From contig JABCTZ010000003.1 of NCBI GenBank assembly GCA_018238155.1, positions 164,289 through 228,288 on the forward strand: 64,000 nucleotides of DNA, given 5' to 3'. Of the stretch, positions 18,339 to 49,593 are shown piece by piece. The notes beneath the pieces are model-generated. The model searched no databases and was not told the origin of the DNA. It saw only the letters and a list, made by a program, of their open reading frames with translations. Position 1 is the stretch's first letter. The number at the start of each line of letters is the position of its first letter. This DNA is from Candidatus Heimdallarchaeota archaeon. GTDB lineage: Archaea > Asgardarchaeota > Heimdallarchaeia > JABLTI01. A program made the position numbers and the translations under genes.

Positions 18339-19511
18339 GTGACATTTGTAATTCTCCTTTCTTTTAGTAGTTCTTTCTTGAAAATTAATCAAGAATCCAA
18401 TGCCTATATAGATTATTCACTAAATGAGCTAATACAAAGTTCTGTTCAAGAATATACTTTCTTGGACTTGGGAATAACAATAAACCAATTTGATTGGTCT
18501 GAAAAGGGTACATTCCAACTGTTTGTAAACAAATCATTCGATATCAAAAATGACGGTCCAATTGTTTTACTATTGGAATTTTCTACTCAAGGGGACAAAC
18601 CAGATAGTCCTGGTTATAAATTAATAGGCGAATTTAATCAACAATTATTTGAAACATCAATCCCAAGGTGGATGATTGGTAGTTCTGATGATCATGAAGT
18701 AATTAAACAATTAGCTGTTCCTCTTGAAGGAGAAGGAAGATTGTATGGTAACTATTTCGAGCTGACAATTGAAGCCAAAAATGAGTTTGATGCTTTTGCT
18801 GAAGGATCTTTACAAATCCTAGGAAGCTCGAAATTTATGGTCGGTGATGATTTGCTCATTGACGCTTTTGGTCATTTTTCAGCAAAAATGCACACTGACT
18901 TTTTGTTTGGTTCGACTACTTTAGGTGGAATCAGAGCTCACTCATATATTCGAATGACGATAAATAATGAAACACTCCTATCCCATGGACTGTACCACCT
19001 GCAATTTTCATTAGAAATTCATGGAGAAGTTGCTTTTTCTTTATTTTTATTTGATACAAATGAACAATCATTTTCCATGGAAAAAAATCAATCAGACGAC
19101 TTTACTTATGATATTGCCGCAGAAATTTCTCCTGTTTTAGGGATTAATCTCTACACACTTGAAATAGCAATCTATGGCGAAAATCTTTGGAGTTCAACTT
19201 TCAATATTAGTATTTCAAATGTGTATTTAAATGTAGAATATTTTGAAGAAGGTGGGTTTGGATTTGATGATCTTGAGATACATTTCTTCCAATGGCCTCA
19301 ATATCCTGTTATAGGGATAATAATTTTAGCGATTTGGATTTTACCTTATTCTGTTCTTAAATATCGAGCATGGAAGAAGCTTCCTGGAGAAGTAGAAATC
19401 AATTTTCTTGATGACGATGATGCGATAAACATTCTGGACCCAGACGGGATGTCTGTAGAAGATCAAGATGATGACATCGATGAAACATTTGAATTTGATG
19501 AGGATGTGTAG
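18339..19511 (+). CDS. Exported beta-rich protein with C-terminal TM and acidic tail
   Basis: N-terminal hydrophobic stretch, TM VIGIIILAIWILPY, D/E-rich end. Confidence 0.65.
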   Translation: MTFVILLSFSSSFLKINQESNAYIDYSLNELIQSSVQEYTFLDLGITINQFDWSEKGTFQLFVNKSFDIKNDGPIVLLLEFSTQGDKPDSPGYKLIGEFNQQLFETSIPRWMIGSSDDHEVIKQLAVPLEGEGRLYGNYFELTIEAKNEFDAFAEGSLQILGSSKFMVGDDLLIDAFGHFSAKMHTDFLFGSTTLGGIRAHSYIRMTINNETLLSHGLYHLQFSLEIHGEVAFSLFLFDTNEQSFSMEKNQSDDFTYDIAAEISPVLGINLYTLEIAIYGENLWSSTFNISISNVYLNVEYFEEGGFGFDDLEIHFFQWPQYPVIGIIILAIWILPYSVLKYRAWKKLPGEVEINFLDDDDAINILDPDGMSVEDQDDDIDETFEFDEDV

Positions 19512-35601: not shown

Positions 35602-35678
35602 TGGAGCCGCTGACGGGATTTGAACCCGCGATCCTTTGATTACGAATCAAATGCTTTACCGAGCTAAGCCACAACGGC
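35602..35678 (-). tRNA. tRNA-Thr(CGU), intronless, CCA encoded
   Basis: Reverse complement GCCGTTG..GCTT..AAGC TTTGA-TT CGT AA-TCAAA GCGGG TTCAAAT CCCGT CAGCGGC T CCA folds as a cloverleaf. Confidence 0.96.
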
Positions 35679-46064: not shown

Positions 46065-46424
46065 CTATAATGCAATAGTTGCACATGCATCTAAGAGTAA
46101 TTCACTTAGATCTGCAACAGAAATAACTTTTACTTCAAGCTTTGGGTCCAAATCTTTAATTTGGATTCCTCTCTGCTCGAGAGATTTATCTAGAGCATAA
46201 ATTGGCACTTCATATCTGTGAAGAGCTTCAAGAGCGCCCATTACTGAATGATGCCCAATTCCATCGGGGTTCTGATCTTTTATGAGATTAAAAACTCCAT
46301 CATCAATGAATATAGCATCATTTTCCACATCTAAAACAAGTAATCCTTGGCCAACACGAACGCCTTCGAGGCTGTTGATTATTCCATAAGGACCCTTTCG
46401 AAAAAGAACAATTACACGATCCAT
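46065..46424 (-). CDS. tusC: TusC/DsrF sulfur relay subunit
   Basis: K.PYG...EG.R, FIDDGV, SL.QRGI. Confidence 0.85.
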   Translation of the reverse strand: MDRVIVLFRKGPYGIINSLEGVRVGQGLLVLDVENDAIFIDDGVFNLIKDQNPDGIGHHSVMGALEALHRYEVPIYALDKSLEQRGIQIKDLDPKLEVKVISVADLSELLLDACATIAL

Positions 46425-46437
46425 TCTTCATTCACCT

Positions 46438-46812
46438 CTAAGCTGAAAAGATGAGGATTCTATCCGAATCTTCAACATACTCACTAAGAGCACCAAGACC
46501 ATCGAAGCTACTTCCTTCGATAATCTTATCTTGACCCATTGTTCCACGATATTCAGCACAAATTGGACAAGCAACCACAGGAATACCTGCTTCAACAAGT
46601 TCCTTAAATAATTCAGAAATATTTCTATCTCGATCATCAGATGGCTTAATATCTTTGACAACGTTGAAAACACCATCTGTGTATAGATATATTCCTGTAA
46701 CCTCATGACCTGCTTTTATTGCTGCTTTTGCAAGATGTATAACTGTATCTGAATTTTGAAAAGTATAAGGCGAGGTCATAACGAGAAATGCAATTCTACC
46801 CAAAAGTATCAC
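46438..46812 (-). CDS. tusD: TusD/DsrE sulfur relay subunit
   Basis: SPY, GHEV..IYLY.DGV.N, CPICAEYRG, GLGAL, DRILIF; start may be TTG 46803. Confidence 0.88.
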   Translation of the reverse strand: MILLGRIAFLVMTSPYTFQNSDTVIHLAKAAIKAGHEVTGIYLYTDGVFNVVKDIKPSDDRDRNISELFKELVEAGIPVVACPICAEYRGTMGQDKIIEGSSFDGLGALSEYVEDSDRILIFSA

Positions 46813-46974
46813 CTAACATATCTAATTCTAGTAAATTAATAAATTTGTTAAGAATAATGGTTTAAAAAGTATACGCACGGGACGGCTCTTCTACTTAAGA
46901 AAATATACCCCCAACTTTATTTAAATTCTCGTTATTTCAAACTTAGATAATAATTGACTGTTTTTGTGATAAAA

Positions 46975-47397
46975 ATGTCTGACAGTAAAAAAAGTATGTC
47001 CATTATAGTCCATTCTGGTACTCTGGACAAAGCTTATCCTCCCTTGATGCTTGCTGTAGCTGCAGCTGCATCTGATATGCATGTTGATTTATTCTTTACT
47101 TTCTGGGGTTTACCTCTAATCAAGAAAAACGGTTTGAAAAAAGCCAAACTCCCAGGACTGATGCGTTTCGGAACCTTTATGATGAGACGCCGAATAAAGA
47201 AAGTAGGTATCGCAAAATTGCAAGAGTTACTTGAAGCTGCTGTTGAAACAGGCAATTTGAATATTTATGCTTGTACTGCTACAATGGACTTGATGATGAT
47301 CAAAAAAGAACAATTAATTCCTGAAGTAGATGGGTTCATAGGTGCCGCAGGTTTCATGGACATAGCTGTTGATGCTGATATTCATTTGTTCATATAA
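46975..47397 (+). CDS. DsrE2/DsrE-like sulfur carrier
   Basis: SGTLDK, FFTFWGL, YACTATMD, GAAGF. Confidence 0.88.
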   Translation: MSDSKKSMSIIVHSGTLDKAYPPLMLAVAAAASDMHVDLFFTFWGLPLIKKNGLKKAKLPGLMRFGTFMMRRRIKKVGIAKLQELLEAAVETGNLNIYACTATMDLMMIKKEQLIPEVDGFIGAAGFMDIAVDADIHLFI

Positions 47398-47413
47398 ATA
47401 AAGGAGAAATTAA

Positions 47414-47656
47414 ATGACTGATATTCCAACTTCTGATAAACTTTTAGATGCACGTGGATTACAATGTCCAATGCCTATTTTGAAAGCAAAGAAAGAAATA
47501 GTAAAACTTGAAATAGGACAAATACTCGAGATATATTCAAATGATGAGGGATCAAAAGAAGATTTCCCACGATGGGCAAGAAGAACAGGTCATGAAATGC
47601 TTGGTATTTTCGATGAAGCCGATTATGCTCGGTATTTTGTAAAACGTCTGGTCTAA
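47414..47656 (+). CDS. tusA: TusA/SirA sulfurtransferase
   Basis: LDARGLQCPMPI, D.GS..D.P.WA...GH. Confidence 0.93.
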   Translation: MTDIPTSDKLLDARGLQCPMPILKAKKEIVKLEIGQILEIYSNDEGSKEDFPRWARRTGHEMLGIFDEADYARYFVKRLV

Positions 47657-47763
47657 TCCAAGACCTTCCGTTATTTTTTTAAGTAAGTTTTTTTTAGTTT
47701 CAGATATTCTAAAAATAACAGTTTTTAGATTAATGGAATCAATCGTTTGTATTCCGTAAAAAC

Positions 47764-47778
47764 GGCAAACTTTAAAAA
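47764..47778 (+). promoter_or_regulatory. Putative BRE/TATA promoter of the permuted 5S gene
   Basis: GGCAAAC-TTTAAAAA about 25-30 bp upstream of the processing stem. Confidence 0.5.
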
Positions 47779-47806
47779 CCAAAAGGCAAAACGATTGAAT
47801 CACGCA

Positions 47807-47955
47807 AAAACTCATCACCGGAAGTTAAGCCTTCATACGTAGTGATAATTACTGATCTGAGAGATCGTTCGGGAACATCATTAAGCTGCGTTGCGACGCG
47901 GTCAAAGCTGGAGGGCAACACCCGGACCCGTCCGATCCCGGAAATGGTGAGTTTT
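47807..47955 (+). other. Precursor processing stem with BHB/BHL-like motif around permuted 5S
   Basis: AAAACTCATCA (47807-47817) pairs with TGGTGAGTTTT (47945-47955); CCGG/CCGG 4-bp helix; AAG and AAA unpaired 3' of each CCGG. Confidence 0.85.
47824..47943 (+). rRNA. rrf: 5S rRNA, circularly permuted (canonical 3' part 47824-47892 precedes canonical 5' part 47895-47943)
   Basis: GUUAAGCC...UACUG...GGGAAC...GCUGCGUU then GACGCGGUCAAAGC...GGGCAACACCCGGACCCGUCCGAUCCCGGAA; helices I, II, III and V pair; 120 nt. Confidence 0.92.
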
Positions 47956-48060
47956 GGCGACTAATTGTACCAGAAACGATTCTTTCTTATTATAATTACC
48001 TCAAAATCATTTGAATTATAGTTAATTTTTTTTAAATAAAAGAAATAATAAAAGATTAGC

Positions 48061-48417
48061 TTATTCTAGCTTATCTTCTACATCAAAAGCCATTTTTCCA
48101 GCTTCAACAGTTATAAAACTGAAACTCAATGTATGTGTTCCTGAAGATAAAGAACCTTTGATTTTAAAAGTAAAAGTATCTCCCTTTGTTAATTTGAAGG
48201 GATTTTCCTTGGAAATTTCTGCTACTGCTATTTCTTGTTCTTTAACAAAAATGTTAATTGTGTTCAAATTTAATTCTTGACCATCAATTTTAAGATATTC
48301 AACTTTTTTAACAGTGCCAGGGTATAAATTATTCCGTAATTGAAAGGAATATTCTTCTCCTTCTTGAGCTAAGCTGCCTTGAACATACAATTTCTTTAAC
48401 ATCGCTTTTGGAATCAT
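48061..48417 (-). CDS. Small beta-sandwich protein (similar to the accessory domain found on some HMG-CoA reductases)
   Basis: IP...LKKLYV.GSL...F.L.N.L..GT pattern recalled from memory; not a reductase catalytic domain. Confidence 0.5.
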   Translation of the reverse strand: MIPKAMLKKLYVQGSLAQEGEEYSFQLRNNLYPGTVKKVEYLKIDGQELNLNTINIFVKEQEIAVAEISKENPFKLTKGDTFTFKIKGSLSSGTHTLSFSFITVEAGKMAFDVEDKLE

Positions 48418-48567: not shown

Positions 48568-49593
48568 ATGAGACAAATGCAGACATTTATTGTTCTTCTA
48601 TTAATAGTATCATTACAAACTAATACAGAGTTTATAGACAATGTTACATCTCATACTGGCGAAAATAACCTAAAAGAGATTAATAATGGGACAATAAATG
48701 TTGTAGCTTCGATTTCAATTGTGGCTGATTTTAGCAATCAAATTGGCGAGGGAATTTTTACTGTAGAAAGTATTGTGTCTGGGAATGAAAATCCACATGT
48801 CTATGAACCATCTCCACATGAAATAGAAAAGGTCGCACAAGCAGATCTTTTTGTGAGATTAGGATTAGAAGGATTAGAGCCATGGGTTCAATCTGTTTTG
48901 GATGTAAACCCTGGAATAAATGTTTTAGAATTAGTAAATTCATCAATGATAGAATTCGATGATGTAATTAATTCTAATAATCCTCATGTTTGGATGGATC
49001 CAAATAATGTTAAAATAATGATTGAAGAAATTTATCAAAGTGTCTCATTATTAGATCCAACAAATATTGCAACTTATGAATCTAATAGAGACTCTTATCT
49101 CAATGAACTTGATTTATTACTTATTCGAATTGATCAAGCAAAGGGCGTTTTTAGTGGAACAAAGGTAGTTGTTCATCATCCCTCATTCAAATATTTCTTT
49201 GATTTACTCGGAATTATTCGAATTGGGGCAATTGAAGAACAAGATGGTGTTGAACCTTCTCCTGATCATATACAAGAAATAATTTCTGCTATTGAATTAG
49301 AAAATGTCACTTTAATAATAAATCAACCTCAATTGGATGATGAAACTGTAAATCAAATTGCAAGAGATACAGAAATACAGATTGTTAATTTAACTCCCTT
49401 GCTAGGAGTTTATAGTTTAGTTGATTATATTTCTATGATTGACTACAACATATTGGCACTCAAGAATCCTTTCAATCCATCTTCATCATTCTTACCATGG
49501 ACAACTTGGTTACTAATAGGGTTTGCCGGAACAATACTTGTAGCATTAGGTGTTGCAATAATAATTGTAAGAAGTAAAAATCCAAGAAAATAA
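48568..49593 (+). CDS. znuA: Zn/Mn ABC transporter substrate-binding protein with C-terminal TM anchor
   Basis: NPHVYEP, NPHVWMDP, HPSF.YF, EPS. Confidence 0.9.
   Translation: MRQMQTFIVLLLIVSLQTNTEFIDNVTSHTGENNLKEINNGTINVVASISIVADFSNQIGEGIFTVESIVSGNENPHVYEPSPHEIEKVAQADLFVRLGLEGLEPWVQSVLDVNPGINVLELVNSSMIEFDDVINSNNPHVWMDPNNVKIMIEEIYQSVSLLDPTNIATYESNRDSYLNELDLLLIRIDQAKGVFSGTKVVVHHPSFKYFFDLLGIIRIGAIEEQDGVEPSPDHIQEIISAIELENVTLIINQPQLDDETVNQIARDTEIQIVNLTPLLGVYSLVDYISMIDYNILALKNPFNPSSSFLPWTTWLLIGFAGTILVALGVAIIIVRSKNPRK

What the first reader, a model, noticed from the sequence alone, without database searches (positions are those of the whole stretch)
47807..47955. Circularly permuted 5S rRNA gene that would be restored by splicing into a 120-nt circle
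Seen in sequence: all archaeal 5S hallmarks are present but in swapped order. The canonical 3' part (GUUAAGCCUUCA...UACUG...GGGAAC...GCUGCGUU, 47824-47892) comes first. The canonical 5' part (GACGCGGUCAAAGCUGGAGGGCAACACCCGGACCCGUCCGAUCCCGGAA, 47895-47943) follows. Helix I (GACGCGG/CUGCGUU), helix II (UGGAGG/CCUUCA), helix III and helix V (AGUGAU/AUCAUU) all still pair, so the gene does not look decayed. It has a TATA-like box at 47771 and a T-rich tract near 47980. Established: permuted tRNA genes (Thermofilum, Cyanidioschyzon) and the permuted SRP RNA of Thermoproteus are restored by endonuclease cleavage and circularising ligation. Inference: this organism builds a ribosomal RNA the same way. 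I know of no described permuted 5S gene. Linear HMM/CM rRNA finders would report only fragments, so relatives may be wrongly recorded as lacking 5S.
Basis: partly seen in the sequence, partly recalled or inferred. Interest (0 to 1): 0.97.

Follow-up and report, generated by a model that had tools for sequence, protein, structure and literature searches.

The report
Back-to-front 5S rRNA gene, rejoined
This Heimdall-group Asgard archaeon encodes its only 5S ribosomal RNA with the back half first, between tRNA-splicing-type cut signals, and environmental RNA contains exactly the predicted rejoined 120-nt form; the same layout holds in most Asgard lineages, which explains why their 5S genes look missing.

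Summary
Window 47824-47943 holds a complete archaeal 5S rRNA in the order 3' part, UGCG cap, 5' part. Rfam sees only two sub-threshold halves, and the genome has no other 5S. The flanks form a bulge-helix-bulge (BHB) motif: an 11-bp leader/trailer stem, a 4-bp central helix and two 3-nt bulges. The predicted cuts join A47943 to G47824 and restore the canonical sequence.

The layout is conserved with strong covariation. In the 5S fold, 26 of 33 pairs show compensatory changes. The BHB stems are 93% paired against 64% when shuffled, and all 10 pairs counted in the outer stem change on both sides. It occurs in all 11 relatives of the same family, in all six Heimdallarchaeia families sampled and in most other Asgard families, including closed genomes. 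It is mutually exclusive with canonical 5S, which I found only in a Hermodarchaeota-labelled family and a few others.

RNA contigs from three metatranscriptome studies cover only 47818-47943 and carry a joint that goes back 120 nt. Two contigs are 150 nt, which is 120 + k-1 and means a closed cycle. The genome encodes two EndA paralogues and RtcB.

Cutting and rejoining is well supported. That the ring itself is the ribosomal 5S is inferred. I found no publication. This scan has already reported the same feature on other DNA (91 notes, at least 73 genomes).

The parts
47757..47778 (+). Archaeal promoter: purine-rich BRE-like element followed by the TATA box TTTAAAAA (47771-47778). The expected transcription start is near 47800.
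   Evidence: AAAAACGG[C/T]AAACTTTAAA(A/T)A is conserved at a near-constant distance upstream of the leader in 10 of 11 family members, with a TATA-like variant in the 11th. The start site is inferred from the usual spacing of about 25 nt, which I recall from general knowledge.
47803..47817 (+). Leader strand of the outer processing stem: CGC 47803-05 and h1a AAAACUCAUCA 47807-17.
   Evidence: It pairs with 47945-47959 in the minimum-free-energy fold of the precursor. On 27 precursors, all 10 counted pairs show changes on both sides.
47818..47821 (+). Leader strand (Ha, CCGG) of the 4-bp central BHB helix.
   Evidence: It pairs with 47938-41. Relatives covary: CUGG:CCGG, CGGG:CCUG, CAGG:CCUG, CGUG:CACG, CCGC:GCGG, CUGG:UCAG.
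47822..47824 (+). Bulge B1 (AAG). The predicted 5' cut lies between 47823 and 47824.
   Evidence: It is a 3-nt bulge 3' of the central helix. The cut position follows the BHB rule that I recall from the literature (cut after the 2nd bulge nucleotide). The RNA joint agrees but cannot resolve the cut within the repeated CCGGAA (both=6).
47824..47943 (+). The 120-nt 5S rRNA in permuted order: 3' part 47824-47891, UGCG cap 47892-47895, 5' part 47896-47943.
   Evidence: RNA contigs cover exactly this stretch.
47892..47895 (+). UGCG (UNCG-type) tetraloop that caps helix I where a normal 5S has its two ends.
   Evidence: Helix I is 47885-91/47896-47902. The automatic fold gave a UNCG loop in 26 of 58 distinct relatives; correcting misfolded helix I regions by eye brings this to about 34. 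The other caps are 3-6 nt, with no conserved sequence.
47938..47941 (+). Hb (CCGG): the 3' strand of helix III in the mature fold, and the partner of the leader's Ha in the precursor.
47942..47944 (+). Bulge B2 (AAA). The predicted 3' cut lies between 47943 and 47944. A47942-A47943 become the universal AA bulge of helix III.
   Evidence: The joint 47943->47824 is seen in RNA contigs.
47945..47959 (+). Trailer strand of the outer stem: h1b UGGUGAGUUUU 47945-55 and GCG 47957-59.
47980..47988 (+). T-rich tract (TTCTTTCTT), a possible archaeal terminator. The evidence is weak.
   Evidence: T-rich runs follow the trailer within about 10-40 nt in all 11 family members. No RNA data bear on it.

Best explanation
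This is the organism's single, functional 5S rRNA gene, with its two halves in swapped order. It is transcribed on its own from a conserved BRE/TATA promoter. In the precursor, the leader (47803-47823) and trailer (47944-47959) pair. Together with the last four nucleotides of helix III they form a relaxed bulge-helix-bulge motif: an 11+3 bp outer stem, a 4-bp CCGG:CCGG helix and 3-nt bulges AAG and AAA. The tRNA-splicing endonuclease (two paralogues are encoded, so probably an alpha2-beta2 enzyme) cuts in both bulges. RtcB ligase then joins A47943 to G47824. The product is a 120-nt covalently closed RNA with every canonical 5S helix, the universal ...CCGGAA-GUUAAG... connection restored, and helix I capped by UGCG. 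Most likely the ring is not re-opened and is itself the 5S rRNA of the large subunit. Shown here: the gene order, its conservation and covariation, the BHB geometry, the presence of the enzymes, the absence of any other 5S, and the rejoined 120-nt cycle in environmental RNA. Inferred: which enzymes act, the exact cut positions, covalent circularity, that the ring is never re-opened, and residence in the ribosome. My odds are about 0.9 for real, cut and rejoined, and about 0.6 for the whole statement including the ring as the mature ribosomal form.
For: 1. Permuted order with all helices. RF00001 finds two half-hits. The consensus fold has compensatory changes in 26 of 33 pairs. The model R1 scores 123.7 bits on the window locus.
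2. It is the only 5S candidate in G000, which is 90.7% complete. Closed relatives G016, G026, G051, G061 and G074 have no RF00001 hit over the cut-off but do have R1 hits.
3. BHB motif. The precursor's minimum-free-energy fold shows it. The outer stem pairs 8/8 and the central helix 4/4 in nearly all lineages where the two are adjacent, with unrelated stem sequences. Own leader/trailer partners pair 7.8 of 8 against 3.9 of 8 for crossed partners. On 27 precursors, 93.4% of cells are paired against 64.1% when shuffled (0 of 500 shuffles reach it) and at most 47% when slid. The covariation score is 0.82 against 0.23.
4. Lineages whose BHB register is shifted by one nucleotide still give the same-length canonical product.
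5. RNA evidence. Contigs of metatranscriptome runs X1, X16 and X17 (three studies) cover 47818-47943 only. X16 and X17 carry the joint 'goes back 120'. X17 has two 150-nt contigs, which is 120 + 30 and means a closed k=31 cycle. X1 has a zero-mismatch contig whose loose end equals 47923-37 (checked). The same contigs span the helix-I cap. None reaches the leader or trailer.
6. Enzymes. There are two EndA paralogues with 22% identity, and in my reading of the pairwise alignment only one keeps the conserved His. RtcB is present.
7. The conserved promoter argues for an expressed gene.
8. E. coli ribosomes tolerate a 5S whose native ends are joined by a 4-nt connector (PMC7283268).
9. Precedent: the permuted SRP RNA gene of Thermoproteus is cut at the circularisation site by the splicing endonuclease and is functional as a circle (PMC4731332).
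Against: All RNA evidence comes from assembled contigs of environmental metatranscriptomes, not single reads. It cannot prove a covalent circle, measure abundance, or exclude a mixture of forms. The DNA control run laid nothing. The inner helix (h2) of a strict hBHBh' motif is missing, so B1 opens into a larger loop; this is a relaxed motif, and cleavage by EndA is not shown. The exact cut sites are hidden by the 6-nt CCGGAA repeat. G000 is only 90.7% complete. Nothing here places the RNA in a ribosome.
Confidence: 0.62

Rival explanations
1. The ring is only an intermediate. After cutting and ligation, a nuclease opens the helix-I cap, giving an ordinary linear 5S with native-like ends. This is how permuted tRNA genes work, where RNase P and tRNase Z remove the linker.
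For: It is the established route for permuted tRNA genes (reviewed in references cited by PMC4267664). Archaeal circular pre-16S/23S RNAs are usually thought to be re-linearised (PMC12918454). Contigs cannot exclude a linear majority form.
Against: The cap is only 3-6 nt. It has no conserved sequence, and a majority of sequences have a hyper-stable UNCG tetraloop, which suggests a retained structural cap rather than a processing site. RNA contigs span the cap but contain no leader or trailer, so cap-intact molecules have already been cut at the BHB. In X17 the RNA graph is an unbranched 120-nt cycle. No 5S-specific end-forming enzyme with such a target is known to me.
Confidence: 0.27
2. The RNA works as a linear permuted 5S, cut at the flanks but not ligated, with its ends at the helix III AA bulge. 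This would resemble the permuted mitochondrial 5S of brown algae, and the joint seen in RNA would be a minor by-product.
For: Permuted 5S RNAs that stay permuted exist in stramenopile mitochondria (PMC4267664). Contigs give no stoichiometry.
Against: The joint is present in all three RNA data sets that hold the sequence. It closes the graph into a cycle rather than leaving ends at 47824 and 47943. BHB cleavage products (2',3'-cyclic phosphate and 5'-OH) are the natural RtcB substrates, and RtcB is encoded. The break would lie inside the conserved helix III/loop C protein-binding arm.
Confidence: 0.06
3. It is an artefact or a dead gene: a mis-assembly or decayed 5S fragments. The real 5S would lie elsewhere, or the RNA joint would come from a canonical-order 5S of another organism.
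For: G000 is a 46-contig MAG with 5.9% contamination and 90.7% completeness.
Against: The same order is found in all 11 other genomes of the family searched (10 of the same genus, 1 of a second genus), in more than 40 distinct sequences in the class, and in closed chromosomes CP084166, CP084167, CP147779 and CP147780. Strong structure-preserving covariation shows selection. Canonical and permuted forms are mutually exclusive across 151 genomes. A canonical-order transcript would not contain the helix-I cap that the RNA contigs cover, and X1 holds a contig identical to the window.
Confidence: 0.02

Closest known systems
Permuted, circularised SRP RNA gene of Thermoproteus tenax (Plagens et al. 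2015, eLife, PMC4731332)
   Same: A structural non-coding RNA gene is permuted in the DNA. [quoted passage not shown] The circle is the functional molecule, and canonical gene finders fail (abstract read).
   Different: Here the RNA is a ribosomal RNA (5S). The trait spans most of a phylum rather than a few species. Enzyme action, circularity and function are not shown experimentally.
Circularly permuted tRNA genes (Cyanidioschyzon merolae; also Thermofilum), as cited in PMC4267664
   Same: The 3' half is encoded before the 5' half. Leader and trailer form a BHB. Cut and ligation restore the normal order through a circular RNA.
   Different: In tRNAs the linker between the native ends is then removed to give a linear tRNA. 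Here the linker is a 4-nt stable cap with no evident processing signal.
Circular pre-16S/23S rRNA and circular or permuted mature 23S rRNA of archaea (PMC12918454; PMC7758197; bioRxiv 10.64898/2026.03.23.713588)
   Same: A BHB in a leader/trailer processing stem, EndA cutting and RtcB ligation give a circular rRNA. For 23S the circle, or a re-opened permuted form, sits in ribosomes.
   Different: Those genes are colinear with the mature RNA, so circularisation is not needed to restore connectivity. The Genome Biology paper states that this processing involves 16S and 23S but not 5S rRNAs.
Permuted mitochondrial 5S rRNA of brown algae and other stramenopiles (Valach et al. 2014, PMC4267664)
   Same: It is a 5S rRNA whose helix I is a closed hairpin, and it is missed by standard models.
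   Different: There the final RNA stays permuted and linear, with its ends at the junction of domains alpha and gamma and no rejoining. Here the break lies in helix III and is re-sealed. No Rfam family other than RF00001 matched this RNA in the window.
Engineered cp5S rRNA in E. coli (Huang et al. 2020, PMC7283268)
   Same: The native 5S ends are joined by a 4-nt connector, and ribosomes carrying it are active.
   Different: It is an artificial construct fused into 23S rRNA, not a free ring and not natural.

Membership tests
5S rRNA (Rfam RF00001) | Three-arm fold with helices I-V | tested here: met
   The RNAalifold consensus on 41 sequences recovers all helices, and 26 of 33 pairs have compensatory changes.
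5S rRNA (Rfam RF00001) | Conserved loop motifs: GUUAAG after the AA bulge, loop C CCGA, the loop E region UACU...GGGAA, and loop A CAAAG | tested here: met
   These are invariant or nearly invariant columns in alignment A1. The sequence opened at the cap aligns end to end with canonical Asgard 5S, with 73-87 of 120 positions identical and positive global scores, against negative scores for the genomic order.
5S rRNA (Rfam RF00001) | Scores above the Rfam gathering threshold as a colinear sequence | tested here: not met
   17.5 and 16.6 bits against a cut-off of 38, as two half-hits. This is the expected consequence of the permutation. The rearranged sequence could not be given to the Rfam tool.
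5S rRNA (Rfam RF00001) | Part of the large ribosomal subunit | not testable with these tools
   No ribosome or RNA-protein data are available. Indirect support: it is the only 5S candidate in the genome.
BHB-spliced permuted RNA genes (permuted tRNA / SRP RNA type) | The 3' part is encoded upstream of the 5' part on one transcript | tested here: met
   There is a single conserved promoter upstream.
BHB-spliced permuted RNA genes (permuted tRNA / SRP RNA type) | Leader and trailer form a bulge-helix-bulge (or relaxed BHL) motif with the cut sites at the new ends | tested here: met
   The outer stem, 4-bp helix and two 3-nt bulges are present. The inner helix h2 is absent, so the motif is the relaxed form.
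BHB-spliced permuted RNA genes (permuted tRNA / SRP RNA type) | The genome encodes the splicing endonuclease and the RtcB ligase | tested here: met
   PF01974 matches twice (93 and 65 bits), and both proteins also carry the N-terminal domain. PF01139 matches at 573 bits.
BHB-spliced permuted RNA genes (permuted tRNA / SRP RNA type) | RNA with the rejoined junction exists | tested here: met
   The joint 47937(+6)->47818(+6), 'goes back 120', occurs in X16 and X17. Matching loose ends occur in X1. Two contigs are 150-nt cyclic contigs. These are contigs, not reads.
BHB-spliced permuted RNA genes (permuted tRNA / SRP RNA type) | Cleavage by EndA and covalent circularity shown biochemically | not testable with these tools
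   This needs an in vitro cleavage assay, RNase R treatment, 2D gels and divergent RT-PCR.
Permuted mitochondrial 5S (mtPerm-5S type, Valach 2014) | The final RNA stays permuted, with open ends at the alpha/gamma junction and no rejoining | tested here: not met
   The break here lies in helix III and is re-sealed in RNA. No mitochondrial permuted-5S family was among the hits.

The most novel reading that the evidence does not exclude
The covalently closed 120-nt ring is never re-opened and is itself the 5S rRNA in the ribosomes of this organism and of most Asgard archaea. That would be the first natural ribosomes with a circular 5S. The permuted gene would then be ancestral to the large Asgard clade that carries it. 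On that reading, the canonical order in the Hermodarchaeota-labelled family, in family f10 and in a few others is a secondary return. The same would hold for eukaryotes if they branch inside this clade. One route back would be a DNA copy of the RNA.
Probability: 0.35. Interest if true: 0.95.

Novelty: new variant of a known kind. Interest (0 to 1): 0.88.

Why it matters
5S rRNA is one of the most conserved and most easily recognised genes in biology. A whole group of archaea, the closest known relatives of eukaryotes, encodes it back to front and depends on the tRNA-splicing machinery to make it. This has four consequences.

1. It explains why 5S genes appear to be missing from Asgard genomes, including closed ones, and why such MAGs fail the 'high-quality' rRNA criterion. 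A permuted covariance model fixes the annotation.
2. It adds a ribosomal RNA to the very short list of genes that need RNA circularisation to function. Until now that list held permuted tRNAs and one SRP RNA.
3. It predicts ribosomes with a ring-shaped 5S. This can be tested now in the cultured Asgard strains and by cryo-EM.
4. It provides a rare, discrete genomic character that is either permuted or canonical. It was mutually exclusive across 151 genomes and could help to polarise deep Asgard phylogeny and the branch leading to eukaryotes.

In the library I could search, no paper reports this. A 2026 paper explicitly excludes 5S from archaeal rRNA circularisation (PMC12918454).

Tried and rejected
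- **Rfam on the rearranged sequence.** I replaced it with a covariance model built from permuted relatives and with global alignment of the ring, opened at the cap, to canonical Asgard 5S.
- **DNA control run.** Run X2 laid nothing, so read-level confirmation of the DNA order was not obtained. Independent assemblies cover that point.
- **Promoter/terminator scan.** The bacterial-type scan is uninformative for an archaeon.
- **Pattern scan of genome contigs.** It also returned about 20 bacterial records. None matches model R1, so they are chance hits. One record labelled 'Deferrimicrobium' does match and looks mis-binned.
- **Naming family f10.** The attempt to name this canonical-order family failed: its records are titled 'uncultured archaeon'.
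- **ORF over the promoter and leader.** ORF 47552-47818 (minus strand, 88 aa) has no Pfam match and is probably spurious.
- **The 178-nt contig of X16.** It is not evidence for rolling-circle cDNA. Its two pieces carry different variant letters, so it is a path through two strains' cycles.
- **Second look-up of earlier notes.** The query on canonical-order lineages returned nothing.
- **Literature.** Searches for a permuted or circular 5S in Asgard, Heimdall or Loki archaea found nothing relevant.

Full report
**The observation**

Rfam at gathering threshold reports no 5S anywhere in the 64-kb window. With permissive thresholds it reports two adjacent sub-threshold RF00001 hits. One, at 47779-47894 (17.5 bits), aligns well only to the 3' half of the model. 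The other, at 47898-48007 (16.6 bits), aligns well only to the 5' half. The cut-off is 38 bits. The window's genome is G000 (4.08 Mb, 46 contigs, 90.7% complete), and it has no other RF00001 candidate.

**Anatomy**

- The RNA-coding core is 47824-47943 (120 nt).
- The canonical 3' part comes first, at 47824-47891. It holds the helix II 3' strand (47830-35), helix V (47841-46/47877-82), helix IV (47852-60/47865-72) and the helix I 3' strand (47885-91).
- A UGCG tetraloop follows at 47892-95.
- The canonical 5' part is 47896-47943. It holds the helix I 5' strand (47896-47902), the helix II 5' strand (47909-14), helix III (47922-25/47938-41) and loop C.

The flanks pair with each other.
- Leader CGC (47803-05) and AAAACUCAUCA (47807-17) pair with trailer UGGUGAGUUUU (47945-55) and GCG (47957-59).
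- Leader CCGG (47818-21) pairs with CCGG (47938-41).
- This leaves a 3-nt bulge on each strand: AAG at 47822-24 and AAA at 47942-44.

The unconstrained minimum-free-energy fold of the precursor shows exactly this arrangement. It is the geometry of an archaeal bulge-helix-bulge (BHB) splice motif. The inner helix h2 is missing, so it is the relaxed form.

Under the BHB rule, which I recall from the structural literature, the cut falls after the second bulge nucleotide. The cuts would then be 47823|47824 and 47943|47944. Joining the ends gives ...GAUCCCGGAA-GUUAAGCC..., the universal 5S connection with its AA bulge.

**Surroundings**

The gene stands alone in a 404-nt spacer. On one side is a TusA gene (47414-47656, + strand), downstream of DsrE-family genes. 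On the other is a minus-strand ORF at 48061-48417. A BRE-like element plus the TATA box TTTAAAAA (47771-78) is conserved at a near-constant distance in the family. T-rich tracts follow the trailer.

**Conservation**

- A blastn search of 47790-47970 finds a colinear match at 85-96% identity in all 11 other genomes of the family.
- Pattern scans and regular-expression extraction gave 40 distinct permuted sequences, and I added the G036 (family f6) sequence by hand to make 41. All come from the same class. By record titles the class is Heimdallarchaeia, and it includes the closed chromosomes of Ca. Heimdallarchaeum aukensis and Ca. H. endolithica, with two copies each.
- Their alignment folds into the 5S helices in permuted order. 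Of 33 pairs, 26 show compensatory changes.
- The leader/trailer motif covaries even more strongly. The 8-bp stem next to the central helix is fully paired in nearly every lineage, with unrelated sequences.
- Own leader/trailer partners pair 7.8 of 8 positions, against 3.9 of 8 for crossed partners.
- On 27 precursors, 93.4% of cells are paired, against 64.1% in shuffles (0 of 500 reach the observed value) and at most 47% when the partner is slid. All 10 outer-stem pairs counted change on both sides.
- The central helix covaries as a pair rather than as a copy: CGUG:CACG, CAGG:CCUG, CCGC:GCGG, CUGG:UCAG.
- In lineages where the BHB register is shifted by one nucleotide, the leader carries one more A. 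The product therefore keeps the canonical length.

**Distribution**

I built covariance model R1 from the permuted alignment and searched 151 genomes of the phylum.
- R1 gives strong full-length hits (about 75-133 bits) in nearly all of the Heimdallarchaeia genomes sampled; family f5 scores 59 bits.
- It gives similar hits in many other Asgard families.
- It gives 37-65 bits in an AT-rich family, f13.
- Reading 20 of these loci confirmed the permuted order and a BHB in 16 further families. Families f10 and f16 have the canonical order.

RF00001 on the same 151 genomes gives the mirror image.
- Canonical 5S scores above the cut-off only in f10 (25/26), f16 (17/19), f19 (3/5), f14, f26 and f27.
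- No family that carries the permuted gene has such a hit. The single f6 hit is the permuted locus itself, at 38.4 bits.

Record titles name the permuted loci as Heimdallarchaeum, Hodarchaeum, Odinarchaeia, Baldrarchaeum, Njordarchaeota, Atabeyarchaeia (closed genomes), Asgardarchaeum and a Helarchaeota MAG. Family f16 is labelled Hermodarchaeota, and f10 stayed unnamed.

**RNA evidence**

Six public metatranscriptome runs hold part of the stretch. I laid three of them, plus one DNA run, on 47700-48050.
- The RNA contigs cover 47818-47943 only. Positions 47818-23 are ambiguous with 47938-43, and no contig reaches the leader or trailer.
- X16 and X17 carry a joint from 47937 to 47818, 'goes back 120', with 6 letters shared by both sides. 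This is 47943 joined to 47824.
- In X17 two contigs are exactly 150 nt, which is 120 + 30. Each starts and ends with the same 30 letters, which is the signature of an isolated closed cycle in a k=31 graph.
- X1 holds a contig with no mismatch to the window. Its loose end equals 47923-37, and a second contig has a loose end equal to 47824-32 (verified).
- The contigs also span the helix-I cap.

Molecules with an intact cap but no leader or trailer, together with the rejoined junction, are most simply explained by a 120-nt ring.

The limits are real. These are assemblies, not reads. They give no stoichiometry and no proof of covalent closure. The DNA run laid nothing.

**Machinery**

G000 encodes two splicing-endonuclease paralogues (197 and 193 aa). 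Each has the N-terminal and the catalytic-type domains, and they are 22% identical. In my reading of the pairwise alignment, only one retains the conserved histidine context. This fits a heterotetrameric enzyme of the kind that, from my recollection of the literature, accepts relaxed BHB motifs. G000 also encodes an RtcB ligase.

**Ring or intermediate?**

- The cap that replaces the native ends is 3-6 nt in the 58 distinct sequences I folded.
- In a majority of sequences it is a UNCG-type tetraloop. The automatic fold gave 26 of 58. Correcting misfolded helix I regions by eye brings this to about 34.
- It has no conserved sequence. That looks like a retained structural cap, not a processing site.
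- E. coli ribosomes tolerate a 5S whose native ends are linked by a 4-nt connector (PMC7283268).
- The permuted SRP RNA of Thermoproteus is functional as a circle (PMC4731332).

I therefore favour the ring as the mature form, at about 0.6. Re-opening at the cap, as happens with permuted tRNAs, remains a serious rival at about 0.27.

**Comparison with what is known**

The mechanism is known: a BHB cut plus RtcB ligation restores a permuted gene. The substrate and the scale are new. Permuted 5S RNAs have been described in stramenopile mitochondria, but those stay permuted and linear (PMC4267664). Archaeal 16S and 23S rRNAs are circularised, but from colinear genes, and a 2026 paper states that this does not involve 5S (PMC12918454). 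My searches found no paper on a permuted or circular 5S in Asgard archaea.

This scan itself has already noted the same feature on other DNA: 91 notes in at least 73 genomes. Those notes reached the same reading. One later check priced the claim that the ring is the ribosome's 5S at 35/100.

**Verdict**

It is a new variant of a known kind and of high interest. The ring-in-the-ribosome step still needs to be shown.

Noticed in passing
L035, L039, L042 and other family-f2 loci (Heimdallarchaeum and relatives), leader region about 10-45 nt upstream of the core: In family f2 a conserved hairpin of about 20 nt (for example UCUGGA-UGUGU-UCCAGA) sits between the leader strand of the long outer stem and the 4-bp central helix. 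The splice signal is therefore a three-way junction, not a plain BHB. The outer stem itself (for example CCUAGUAAGGU / ACCUUACUAGG) is still perfect.
   Followed up: partly
L050 (G015:C30, about 19077-19225): One genus-g4 (family f3) genome has a 29-nt insertion in the loop C / helix III region of its permuted 5S. The insertion repeats UCAUUCCG and contains a small hairpin. It may be an additional intron inside the 5S. Model R1 still scores the locus at 97.6 bits.
   Followed up: no
L119 (G126:C251); also G067, G057, G140 and G047: Several genomes of the AT-rich family f13 have 150-nt permuted 5S genes. In L119 an insertion of about 30 nt lies in the helix IV/V arm.
   Followed up: no
L155, 1455-1676: A second, weaker R1 hit (45.9 bits, 222 nt) lies about 40 nt downstream of a good permuted 5S copy. 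It may be a diverged or interrupted tandem copy.
   Followed up: no
L132 (DATKTP010000169.1), L079 (DATKZI010000026.1), L068 (JBHLQZ010000003.1), L174 (JAPDJY010000015.1): Contigs in records labelled Deferrimicrobium (a bacterium), Bathyarchaeia, Thorarchaeota and Thermoproteota carry Asgard-type permuted 5S genes. R1 scores L132 at 109.6 bits and L174 at 80.4 bits; L079 and L068 were identified by sequence extraction. The permuted 5S could serve as a marker for mis-binned or mislabelled Asgard contigs.
   Followed up: partly
G036 contigs C77, C90, C106, C132 (L033, L061): The family-f6 genome has four identical permuted 5S copies. At least three lie within about 130 nt of a contig end, which suggests a repeat that breaks the assembly.
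   Followed up: no
window 46065-47656: A DsrE/DsrF-like, DsrE_2 and TusA sulfur-relay gene cluster lies directly upstream of the 5S gene. A ZnuA-type binding-protein gene lies downstream at 48568-49593.
   Followed up: partly
window 35605-35678 (-): This tRNA gene (68.6 bits) is the only Rfam hit above threshold in the whole window.
   Followed up: no
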